From the sequence record OR845271.1: DNA of 6,032 bases, one strand, 5' to 3'. Position numbers and translations under genes: made by a program. Shown piece after piece: positions 5,099 through 5,593 of the stretch. Below the pieces are notes generated by a model. That model did not search any database. It saw nothing but the letters and a program-made list of their open reading frames with translations, and had not been told where the DNA came from. Position 1 is the stretch's first letter. Every line of letters begins with the position of its first letter. The stretch is from Escherichia phage ECO95 1-6-1.

Positions 5099-5593
5099 AT
5101 GGATGTTTTTTCTGGAATCGCGGCTGCGAAACAGGCTTATGAATTGATAAAGTTAATCACTAATACTCGTGATCAAGCAGTTATAAATAAGGCTGCTGGA
5201 GAGCTTTCTGAAAAGATAACTGAGCTACAGATTACCAATGCAGAGCTCGCGGGACTTTATCAAGCGGAGCGTGATGTCACAGTGAAGCTTCGCGAAGAAA
5301 ATAACAAAATTGAGATGTTTTCTGTACAGGCTGAAAATTATGATATTTATACAACTGAAGGAGGATCTACCGTGTATCGCTCTAAGAAAACGGCTAATTC
5401 GGTAGTTCCACATCATTATCTTTGCACACATTGCTTCAGCGAGTACAAGATATCTATACTTCAACCAAGTATTGAAACAATTAAATCTATGGGGTTCTTT
5501 GTTCATCAATGCCCCAGATGCAAAAATGAATATCGAATGAATAAGGTTCCTCCATTGCCTGATATTCACGTTCCTCCGCTTTCCCGCTGGTAA
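5099..5593 (+). CDS. Coiled-coil plus C-terminal zinc-ribbon protein, function unknown (164 aa from the ATG at 5099; the track gives 167 aa from the GTG at 5090)
   Basis: This is the only plus-strand ORF not shadowing a minus-strand gene. The ATG at 5099 has AAGAGAG about 9 nt upstream. The N-terminal ~75 aa are helical and heptad-like. Zinc ligands are CTHC...(25 aa)...CPRC, followed by a Pro-rich tail. There is no hydrophobic segment. The gene is AT-rich. Confidence 0.8.
   Translation: MDVFSGIAAAKQAYELIKLITNTRDQAVINKAAGELSEKITELQITNAELAGLYQAERDVTVKLREENNKIEMFSVQAENYDIYTTEGGSTVYRSKKTANSVVPHHYLCTHCFSEYKISILQPSIETIKSMGFFVHQCPRCKNEYRMNKVPPLPDIHVPPLSRW

What the first reader, a model, noticed from the sequence alone, without database searches (positions are those of the whole stretch)
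5099..5593. Counter-oriented AT-rich gene abutting the stop codon of N: a coiled-coil plus zinc-ribbon protein in the sieB-type exclusion slot
Every other credible gene here runs on the minus strand as one PL-type operon. This gene runs against it, and its stop (5591-5593) touches the N-like stop (5594-5596) with no spacer. It is visibly more AT-rich than its flanks, which fits a separately acquired moron. The protein has a heptad-like helical N-terminal half (…ELSEKITELQITNAELAGLYQAERDVTVKLREENNKIE), a beta-rich linker, a CxxC-25-CxxC zinc ribbon (C112/C115 and C141/C144 in track numbering) and a Pro-rich tail. It has no transmembrane segment and no catalytic motif I can name. In lambda, the slot just distal to N carries sieB (abortive-infection-type exclusion, expressed in the lysogen and, as I recall, also convergent with N) and ral. 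A gene antisense to PL should be expressed in the lysogen and silenced by convergent transcription on induction, which is the usual logic for prophage defence genes. I cannot place it in any named defence family, so it is my best candidate for an undescribed single-gene exclusion or defence function.
Basis: partly seen in the sequence, partly recalled or inferred. Interest (0 to 1): 0.75.

Follow-up and report, generated by a model that had tools for sequence, protein, structure and literature searches.

The report
Rip1-family pore defence gene beside N
The odd backwards-facing gene next to the phage's N gene is real and very likely an anti-phage defence gene, but it belongs to the Rip1 "ring-interacting pore" family described with a structure in 2026, so it is a new member of a known family, not an undescribed system.

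Summary
A 164-aa ORF (5099-5593, +) runs against the leftward early operon of a P22-like Salmonella prophage. Its stop codon touches the N stop, it is AT-rich, and it has a helical N-terminal half plus four invariant cysteines. It is not an undescribed family. Sequence (E=6e-13), profile-profile (99.9%, E=1.7e-31) and fold (Foldseek prob 1.0, TM 0.61/0.77) comparisons place it in the Rip1 family (Patel et al. 2026, Nature; PDB 9oox, phage HK446 Rip1 around T6 small terminase). It is 63% identical to HK620 HkaP, 29% to HK446 Rip1 and 28% to D3112 orf25. HK446 rip1 occupies the same N-convergent slot. Likely mechanism, by homology: the prophage expresses it constitutively; it assembles around ring-shaped portal or small-terminase oligomers of an invading phage, forms an inner-membrane pore, and aborts the infection. 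Added here: the 654-bp insert carries the mapped P22 sieB promoter and RNA start (-10 at 5060-5065, predicted start A5073). That promoter block sits upstream of SieB or Rip1-family genes in 110 of 120 scanned viral contigs, so the slot behaves as a swappable defence cassette. New member of a known kind; moderate-low interest.

The parts
5099..5593 (+). Rip1-family (HkaP-clade) defence gene, 164 aa. Helices at residues 3-22 and 26-80, then a beta/4-Cys zinc-ribbon domain (C109, C112, C138, C141) and a Pro-rich tail.
   Evidence: ORF; phrog_1244 6.6e-40; PDB 9oox Rip1 E=6e-13 single sequence and 2e-15 profile; hhalign 99.9%, E=1.7e-31; Foldseek prob 1.0, TM 0.61/0.77; pN/pS 0.37; AF2 pLDDT 81.5.
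5035..5065 (+). Promoter homologous to the annotated P22 sieB promoter; -10 hexamer TAAAAT at 5060-5065; weak -35.
   Evidence: megablast hit to the NC_002371 'sieB: promoter | sieB RNA start site' features; P22 feature coordinates transferred through alignment A3.
5073..5098 (+). Predicted 5' leader: transcript start at A5073 (by homology to the P22 sieB RNA start site), Shine-Dalgarno AAGAGAG at 5084-5090.
   Evidence: The leader folds less well than shuffles (z=+1.74), consistent with an open RBS.
4996..5061 (.). Near-invariant block shared by this window, P22, lambda, HK446 and HK620 whatever the downstream cargo. It reaches about 40 nt upstream of the promoter. It holds the first copy (5040-5048) of a direct repeat CCCCTACAG; the second copy (5075-5083) lies just past the predicted RNA start.
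   Evidence: alignments A2 and A3; blastn 92% to HK446 and 85% to lambda; anchor found in at least 120 IMG/VR contigs.
4966..5619 (.). The 654-bp moron insert relative to epsilon34: promoter block, gene, and the last ~26 nt of N (the last 8 of N's final 10 residues differ from epsilon34 N).
   Evidence: blastn breakpoints at window 4965 and 5620 against L006; N C-termini compared.
5594..5956 (-). N-type antiterminator gene, convergent with the defence gene. PL transcription reading through it is antisense to the defence gene.
   Evidence: PF25694 1.2e-18; phrog_271.
4942..4958 (-). Intrinsic-terminator-like hairpin plus T-run for leftward transcripts, just beyond the insert. Conserved with the 'putative weak rho-independent terminator' of epsilon34.

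Best explanation
The gene encodes a Rip1-family ('ring interacting pore') anti-phage protein of the HkaP clade, carried as a moron in the N-distal (sieB) slot of a P22-like Salmonella prophage.

Inferred mechanism:
1. In the lysogen it is transcribed rightward from its own sieB-type promoter (-10 at 5060-5065, start near 5073), while PL is repressed.
2. The protein alone is harmless.
3. When a superinfecting phage reaches late gene expression, its ring-shaped oligomers (portal and/or small terminase) act as a scaffold. The C-terminal beta/zinc-ribbon domain of about 12 copies binds around the ring.
4. The N-terminal amphipathic helices are thereby brought together into a pore in the inner membrane. 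The cell is permeabilised or lysed before progeny mature, giving abortive infection.
5. On induction of the resident prophage, N-antiterminated PL transcription runs antisense through the whole gene and its promoter. That probably damps expression.

Shown here: homology, fold, gene context, promoter homology, purifying selection. Taken from the literature for homologs: pore formation, triggers, stoichiometry. Inferred only: that this clade behaves the same way, its trigger range, and the self-protection step.
For: Family membership:
- phmmer of the window protein alone hits PDB 9oox 'ring interacting pore 1 (Rip1)' at E=6e-13 over residues 11-146. The clade profile hits at 2e-15.
- hhalign of the clade profile against an independent profile built from HK446 Rip1, D3112 orf25 and 5 representatives gives 99.9%, E=1.7e-31 over 147 columns.
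- The AF2 model matches 9oox_M with Foldseek prob 1.00, TM 0.61/0.77, 31% identity; the next non-Rip1 PDB hit has E=0.57.
- Motifs are shared across all branches: VYR, H-Y-L/I-C-x-x-C, S/T-I-L-Q, C-x-x-C.

Mechanism in homologs: review of Patel et al. 2026 (PMC13434031), with consistent shorter mentions in PMC12908700 and PMC13601566.

Context:
- HK446 rip1 is in the same N-convergent slot.
- D3112 orf25 is counter-oriented between the terminase genes. That is the slot where the review places Pseudomonas Rip1 and where JBD26 Tab sits.
- The family has 1619 representatives at 50% clustering, nearly all 150-170 aa.

Expression: the upstream DNA matches the annotated P22 sieB promoter and RNA start, and sieB is a prophage-expressed exclusion gene (abstract of PMC10883804).

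Selection and spread: pN/pS 0.37. This exact protein is listed in 2141 blocks of the assembly collection, always in the same arrangement in the places shown.
Against: - Identity to the experimentally studied proteins is only 28-29%. No member of the HkaP clade is known to me to have been tested.
- The primary paper was not readable here, so the mechanistic details come from a review.
- The window clade lacks the first ~11 residues of HK446 Rip1, and its N-terminal helix is less hydrophobic (Kyte-Doolittle maximum 0.91 against 1.28). Membrane insertion could therefore differ.
- The simple sigma-70 scan did not flag the sieB-type promoter, because its -35 is poor. Promoter activity is inferred by homology only.
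- PADLOC 2023 has no model for the family. Its only hit is a weak Cas10 match (E=7e-4), which I regard as noise.
Confidence: 0.8

Rival explanations
1. It is a SieB-type exclusion protein: a membrane protein that aborts lytic growth, with an in-frame Esc self-protection product.
For: Same slot, same orientation and the same promoter/leader as P22 and lambda sieB. SieB is the commonest cargo behind this promoter: 88 of 120 loci.
Against: No sequence similarity to P22 or lambda SieB (best blastp E=2). The protein has no transmembrane segment. It is homologous over its full length to Rip1 instead.
Confidence: 0.02
2. It is a RAZR-like ring-activated effector: a zinc-finger sensor that assembles around phage rings but acts enzymatically (RNase), not as a pore.
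For: RAZR also uses a zinc-finger domain to bind around portal or recombinase rings (PMC13017515). The window protein has a 4-Cys domain.
Against: RAZR has the opposite order, an N-terminal ZFD followed by a C-terminal HEPN domain. The window protein has no Rx4-6H motif and no catalytic domain, since its N-terminal half is two helices. Neither the PDB sequence search nor the PDB fold search returned a RAZR entry.
Confidence: 0.02
3. It is a Rip1 homolog by descent but does something else in this clade, for example a regulator or a packaging/assembly accessory protein that binds the phage's own portal or terminase ring. Alternatively it is an inactive relic.
For: Only 28-29% identity to the tested Rip1 proteins. 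The N-terminus is shorter and less hydrophobic. In Mu-like phages the homolog lies between the two terminase genes, which could suggest a packaging role.
Against: It is sporadically present: absent from epsilon34 and many P22-like phages, and replaced by SieB behind the same promoter. It is counter-oriented to the operons around it in three unrelated phage backbones. It is under purifying selection with all family motifs intact. It occurs in very many Salmonella genomes.
Confidence: 0.1
4. The ORF is a chance open frame, and the real function of the region is antisense or regulatory RNA for the PL operon.
For: Nine IMG/VR loci have the same promoter firing into convergent genes with no cargo ORF. 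P22 sieB is controlled by an antisense RNA, sas.
Against: There are 1619 family representatives. The substitution pattern is third-position-biased and pN/pS is 0.37. A homolog has a solved structure.
Confidence: 0.01

Closest known systems
Rip1 (ring interacting pore 1) of Escherichia phage HK446: PDB 9oox, Patel et al. 2026, Nature 651:1060
   Same: Same length (164 aa). Same architecture: N-terminal helices plus a C-terminal beta/4-Cys domain. Same conserved motifs. Same genomic slot (convergent with N, behind the sieB-type promoter block, which is 92% identical over ~100 bp). Fold match TM 0.61/0.77.
   Different: Only 29% identical. The window protein lacks the first ~11 residues and the Gly/Ala-rich hydrophobic start of HK446 Rip1. 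The HK446 gene overlaps N by 8 nt, whereas here the two stops abut. Trigger specificity of this clade is unknown.
HK620 HkaP (NP_112049), also in HK629, HK630 and an Stx1a phage
   Same: Closest named relative: 63% identity over all 164 residues, same promoter block, counter-oriented in the PL operon.
   Different: In HK620 and HK630 an extra gene, hkaQ, lies between hkaP and N (30-nt gap to hkaQ). HkaP is uncharacterised; the only literature use found treats it as an insertion landmark.
Pseudomonas Casadabanvirus Rip1-type gene (D3112 orf25 and homologs in DMS3, MP38, JBD69)
   Same: Same family (28% identity, E=2.7e-14). Also a counter-oriented moron.
   Different: [quoted passage not shown] Longer, at 178 aa.
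SieB of P22 and lambda
   Same: Same slot, same orientation and same promoter/leader. Also a prophage-expressed, single-gene, abortive-type exclusion function.
   Different: Unrelated protein. SieB regulation involves Esc and the sas antisense RNA, and no counterpart was found here.
Tab (JBD26) and RAZR
   Same: Tab: a counter-oriented prophage moron with its own promoter, in the same Casadabanvirus terminase slot as the Rip1 homologs, acting on late or structural proteins. RAZR: activation by assembling around phage ring proteins through a zinc-finger domain.
   Different: No sequence or fold relationship. Tab blocks tail assembly through the tape-measure protein. RAZR is a HEPN RNase.

Membership tests
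Rip1 (ring interacting pore) family | Significant full-length sequence homology to a characterised Rip1 | tested here: met
   phmmer E=6e-13; profile E=2e-15; blastp 29% over 145 aa, E=6e-17; hhalign 99.9%, E=1.7e-31, 147 columns. The reciprocal tblastn with HK446 Rip1 recovers the Salmonella and HK620 genes.
Rip1 (ring interacting pore) family | Same fold as the solved Rip1 protomer | tested here: met
   AF2 model pLDDT 81.5. Foldseek against 9oox_M: prob 1.00, E=2.9e-7, TM 0.61/0.77, rmsd 3.0 over 125 columns. No other PDB hit below E=0.5.
Rip1 (ring interacting pore) family | Small single protein (~160 aa): N-terminal amphipathic helical part, C-terminal ring-contacting part | tested here: met
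   164 aa; helices 3-22 and 26-80; beta/4-Cys domain 81-149. The highest hydrophobic moment and hydrophobicity lie in the N-terminal helix, with no TM segment. Architecture as summarised.
Rip1 (ring interacting pore) family | Conserved Cys4 and flanking motifs (VYR, HYLCxxC, SILQ, CxxC) | tested here: met
   Invariant in A1 and A4, and in the four-way alignment. Zinc binding itself was not tested.
Rip1 (ring interacting pore) family | Prophage-borne moron with its own promoter, oriented against the surrounding operon | tested here: met
   Insert relative to epsilon34; sieB-type promoter; integrated Salmonella prophages; same slot as HK446 rip1.
Rip1 (ring interacting pore) family | Assembles as a ~12-mer around portal or small-terminase rings and forms a membrane pore; not toxic alone | not testable with these tools
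   Known for homologs only. Needs co-expression, cryo-EM and leakage assays.
Rip1 (ring interacting pore) family | Confers phage resistance, with escape mutations in portal or small terminase | not testable with these tools
   Needs plating assays. No report found for the HkaP clade.
SieB | Sequence homology to P22 or lambda SieB; membrane-spanning segments | tested here: not met
   Best blastp E=2; maximum Kyte-Doolittle 19-mer mean 0.91.
SieB | N-distal slot, convergent with N, behind the sieB promoter | tested here: met
   This is a shared location and promoter, not shared ancestry of the protein.
RAZR | N-terminal zinc-finger domain followed by a HEPN RNase domain (Rx4-6H) | tested here: not met
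   Domain order is reversed and there is no Rx4-6H motif. No RAZR hit in the PDB searches. RAZR architecture taken.
Known defence families in PADLOC-DB v2 (2023) | Significant HMM match | tested here: not met
   Only a 16.6-bit Cas10 match, E=7e-4. The library predates Rip1.

The most novel reading that the evidence does not exclude
The sieB promoter/leader block is a portable 'adapter'. It lets lambdoid and P22-like phages exchange unrelated abortive-infection cargos (SieB, two deeply diverged Rip1 clades, or none) at the 3' end of N. It also imposes a common control on all of them: on in the lysogen, shut off by antisense PL read-through or a sas-like RNA when the resident phage itself goes lytic. 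Within that frame, the HkaP clade would be a Rip1 variant with its own trigger range, for example rings of Salmonella phages, tuned not to fire on the resident P22-like portal and small terminase.
Probability: 0.25. Interest if true: 0.5.

Novelty: new member of a known kind. Interest (0 to 1): 0.3.

Why it matters
For annotation, thousands of Salmonella, E. coli and other enterobacterial prophage genes now labelled 'hypothetical', 'HkaP' or 'coiled-coil protein' can be named as Rip1-family pore-forming defence genes. This exact protein is listed in 2141 blocks of the assembly collection. It matters for phage-therapy host-range prediction in Salmonella, because such a gene would abort infection late, after the invading phage has made its portal or terminase rings. 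The added observation concerns how prophage defence hotspots are built and reshuffled: one invariant promoter block serves both SieB and Rip1 cargos at the N-distal slot. It also gives a simple sequence anchor for mining further cargos. None of this overturns current understanding.

Tried and rejected
- Pfam, NCBIfam and PADLOC gave no usable family. Pfam returned only sub-threshold zinc-ribbon and coiled-coil noise, NCBIfam returned nothing, and PADLOC returned a weak Cas10 match that I reject as coiled-coil/zinc-finger noise.
- A literature search for 'hkaP' with substring matching returned only unrelated SPHKAP and KAP papers. The one true HkaP paper uses the gene only as an insertion landmark.
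- Tsao 2018, Bondy-Denomy 2016 and the primary Rip1 paper are not held. A search for 'HK446'/'Rip1' returned only eukaryotic RIP1 papers.
- The Tab paper looked at first as if Tab might be the D3112 orf25 homolog. Tab is a different, 83-aa protein in the same slot.
- RAZR was considered and rejected.
- Rfam: only two sub-threshold chance matches in 4700-6032.
- RNA folding of the invariant block on either strand is not better than shuffles (z=-1.4 and -1.2). A structured RNA therefore does not explain its conservation.
- The consensus promoter scan found no sas-like leftward promoter inside the gene, and it did not flag the sieB-type promoter either.
- I considered an Esc-like internal start at M73. 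No convincing Shine-Dalgarno precedes it and M73 is not invariant, so I did not pursue it.
- A first blastn against epsilon34 failed because of a file-naming assumption; it was redone.

Full report
1. WHAT IS IN THE SEQUENCE

The window is the early-left region of a P22-like Salmonella prophage. The stretch 4900-6032 is 99.7% identical to Salmonella phage S.Kent 1-2-1. On the minus strand it carries, in order: N (5594-5956; PF25694, E=1.2e-18), a DUF7666 protein (4251-4910), CIII, a small PHROG-annotated 'recombinase', Erf, an HTH regulator, Abc2 and further early genes.

The one plus-strand ORF with support is 5099-5593 (one search lists it from a GTG at 5090). Three things make the ATG at 5099 the likely start:
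- It follows a Shine-Dalgarno sequence, AAGAGAG, at 5084-5090.
- It aligns with the start codons of the HK620 and HK446 homologs.
- It lies 26 nt downstream of the predicted transcript start.

The TAA stop (5591-5593) touches the TGA stop of N, which reads TCA at 5594-5596 on the plus strand.

GC content is 0.396 against 0.461 for the rest of the window, which puts the ORF in the lowest 1.7% of 495-nt windows. The plus frame is the selected one. Against HK620 hkaP, pN/pS is 0.37 and differences by codon position are 45/28/86. The antisense 114-aa ORF contains stops in HK620. Those cysteines are C109/C112/C138/C141 counted from the ATG, and they are invariant in 18 homologs.

2. WHAT IT IS

Pfam, NCBIfam and PADLOC do not recognise the protein. 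PHROGs places it in phrog_1244, function unknown (E=6.6e-40). The closest named relative is HK620 HkaP at 63% identity. HkaP is also found in HK629, HK630 and an Stx1a phage, and distant relatives (27-35%) occur in Klebsiella phages, E. coli Mu-like phages and Pseudomonas Casadabanviruses such as D3112 orf25.

The decisive result is a match to PDB 9oox, 'ring interacting pore 1 (Rip1)':
- E=6e-13 for the window protein alone, and 2e-15 for a profile of its clade.
- The entry is the cryo-EM structure of Escherichia phage HK446 Rip1 bound to T6 small terminase, with 12 Rip1 chains.
- An AlphaFold model of the window protein (pLDDT 81.5: helices 3-22 and 26-80, then a small beta/zinc domain) matches chain M with Foldseek probability 1.00, TM 0.61/0.77 and 31% identity. 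Nothing else in the PDB scores below E=0.5.
- A profile built independently from HK446 Rip1, D3112 orf25 and five distant representatives aligns to the window-clade profile at 99.9% probability, E=1.7e-31, over 147 columns.
- The motifs VYR, HY(L/I)CxxC, (S/T)ILQ and CxxC are shared by all branches.

An exhaustive profile search finds 1619 family representatives at 50% clustering. Nearly all are 150-170 aa and match over their full length.

3. WHAT RIP1 DOES (LITERATURE)

The primary paper is Patel et al. 2026, Nature 651:1060. It was not readable here, so I rely on a review (PMC13434031), a meeting report (PMC12908700) and a citing paper (PMC13601566). According to these:
- Rip1 is a prophage-encoded single protein that is not toxic alone.
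- During infection it is triggered by oligomeric ring proteins. Escape mutations map to the portal in Pseudomonas phages and to the small terminase in coliphages.
- Twelve Rip1 protomers encircle an 11-mer small-terminase ring.
- The N-terminal part forms amphipathic helices, and the C-terminal half contacts the ring.
- The assembly forms a pore that releases dye from liposomes and damages the membrane, causing premature lysis.
- Homologs are widespread in Proteobacteria, mostly in prophages.

In the window protein the most hydrophobic and amphipathic stretch is the N-terminal helix, and there is no transmembrane segment. Both points fit that architecture.

4. CONTEXT: THE SLOT AND ITS PROMOTER

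HK446 rip1 (25911-26405, +) sits in the same place and overlaps N by 8 nt. In epsilon34 the slot is empty: N is followed by a weak terminator and then the DUF7666 homolog. Against epsilon34, homology breaks at window 4965 and resumes at 5620. That defines a 654-bp insert which includes the last ~26 nt of N.

The ~100 bp upstream of the ORF was unexpected. It is 92% identical to the DNA upstream of HK446 rip1 and 85% identical to the DNA upstream of lambda sieB, yet the downstream proteins are 29% identical or unrelated. The same block matches the annotated 'sieB promoter' and 'sieB RNA start site' of P22. Transferring those features through the alignment places:
- the promoter at window 5035-5065, with the -10 hexamer TAAAAT at 5060-5065;
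- the transcript start at A5073.

I then used the invariant 37-mer as an anchor against IMG/VR. The gene downstream of the anchor was:

| Cargo behind the anchor | Loci |
|---|---|
| SieB, P22-type | 59, plus 1 truncated by a contig end |
| SieB, lambda-type | 28 |
| Rip1 family, HK446-type | 13, plus 1 interrupted by what looks like an IS-element transposase ORF |
| Rip1 family, HkaP-type | 8 |
| No cargo ORF | 9 |
| Unclear (L106) | 1 |

In the SieB and Rip1 loci tabulated before one search stopped with an error, the cargo is convergent with N or hkaQ, with one exception among the Rip1 loci; the lambda-type SieB loci were not tabulated. The window's own N type is paired with SieB in 16 loci. 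This phage therefore looks like a Rip1-for-SieB swap at a conserved promoter cassette.

The exact window protein is listed in 2141 blocks of the assembly collection. The places shown are integrated Salmonella prophages with the identical arrangement.

5. HOW IT MOST LIKELY WORKS HERE

- Shown: homology, fold, motifs, moron status, promoter homology, purifying selection.
- From the literature on homologs: ring-triggered pore formation and abortive infection.
- Inferred: the gene is transcribed from the sieB-type promoter in the lysogen. P22 sieB is prophage-expressed (PMC10883804 abstract).
- Inferred: N-antiterminated PL transcription, which is antisense to the whole gene and its promoter, reduces expression when the resident phage is induced. 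It is plausible but untested.
- Not found: a sas-like antisense promoter or an Esc-like internal start. P22 sieB has a sas antisense RNA.

My confidence is about 0.9 that it belongs to the Rip1 family and about 0.7 that it acts as a ring-triggered pore. I give 0.8 for the combined statement as worded.

6. RIVALS

- SieB membership fails: there is no similarity and no TM segment.
- RAZR is the companion 'ring-activated zinc-finger RNase' (PMC13017515). It shares the ring-sensing principle but has the opposite domain order and a HEPN domain. The window protein has no Rx4-6H motif, and no RAZR match appeared.
- A non-defence role, such as a packaging accessory or a regulator, is disfavoured. The gene is sporadically present, it is counter-oriented in three unrelated backbones, and it is interchangeable with SieB.
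- Chance ORF is excluded.

7. NOVELTY AND VERDICT

This is a divergent (HkaP-clade) member of the Rip1 family, in the same slot as the structurally characterised HK446 Rip1. RefSeq already notes HK620 HkaP as a 'putative superinfection exclusion protein'.

What remains open:
- the trigger range of this clade;
- how the resident phage avoids setting it off;
- why a ~65-nt block reaching upstream of the promoter is invariant across phages with different cargos. RNA structure does not explain it.

I rate this as a new member of a known kind, interest about 0.3.

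Noticed in passing
window 4996-5098; also L001 (HK620), L004 (HK446), L005 (lambda), L007 (P22): A ~65-nt block (TGCCTGTCTTTTAACCACRTCAGGCTCGGTGGTTCTCGYGTACCCCTACAGCGAGAAA) is nearly invariant in five phages whose downstream genes are unrelated or only 29% identical. It reaches ~40 nt upstream of the mapped sieB promoter. A direct repeat CCCCTACAG occurs at 5040-5048 (overlapping the -35 region) and at 5075-5083 (just after the predicted start). Neither strand folds better than shuffles (z=-1.4 and -1.2). The reason for the invariance is unexplained; candidates are a regulator binding site or a recombination junction.
   Followed up: partly
L025 471-1000; same configuration in L011, L014, L029, L048, L064, L083, L100, L121: Nine IMG/VR contigs carry the sieB-type promoter with an intact -10 but no cargo ORF. 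The start region is followed by CCCCCTTATTTTGTCAGGGGG (hairpin-like), then directly by convergent minus-strand genes: a 143-aa ORF, an HNH-like 177-aa ORF and a cI-like repressor. This could be an empty slot, or a promoter retained to make an antisense or small RNA.
   Followed up: partly
L128-L131 (about 870-1800 bp beyond the right end of the window, past N): In the Salmonella prophages that carry this exact protein, a BstA-family gene (PF26567 BstA_C, 307 aa) lies between the cI-type repressor and PL/N. The immunity region therefore holds two different single-gene defence systems, a BstA-family and a Rip1-family gene, flanking N.
   Followed up: no
window 4459-4559 (inside the DUF7666 gene, 4251-4910, minus strand): A 27-bp tandem repeat (3.7 copies, 94% matches) encodes the SAATNTG(N/D)(R/W) repeats. 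The same gene is 192, 273, 291 or 309 aa in otherwise near-identical prophages, against 219 aa here. This suggests repeat copy-number variation in a protein of unknown function just downstream of the defence slot.
   Followed up: partly
L024 (IMG/VR contig 2548876955_000006), downstream of the anchor: An HK446-type rip1 is interrupted after codon ~56 by an ORF resembling an IS-element transposase (MKKRNFSAEFKRESAQLV...; I recognise it as IS3-family orfA-like, but it was not scanned against any family library). This would be a naturally inactivated copy of the defence gene.
   Followed up: no
L003 3965-4501 (D3112 orf25): [quoted passage not shown] In both cases the defence gene points against the late operon. 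This is a second swappable defence slot, analogous to the N-distal slot.
   Followed up: partly
window 5594-5619 (3' end of N): Within the last 10 residues of N, 5 of the 8 positions after the shared 'HR' differ from epsilon34 N (HRSNKPLTAR against HRKCGQITAR). The moron insert's right boundary lies inside N, so cargo exchange remodels the C-terminus of the antiterminator.
   Followed up: partly
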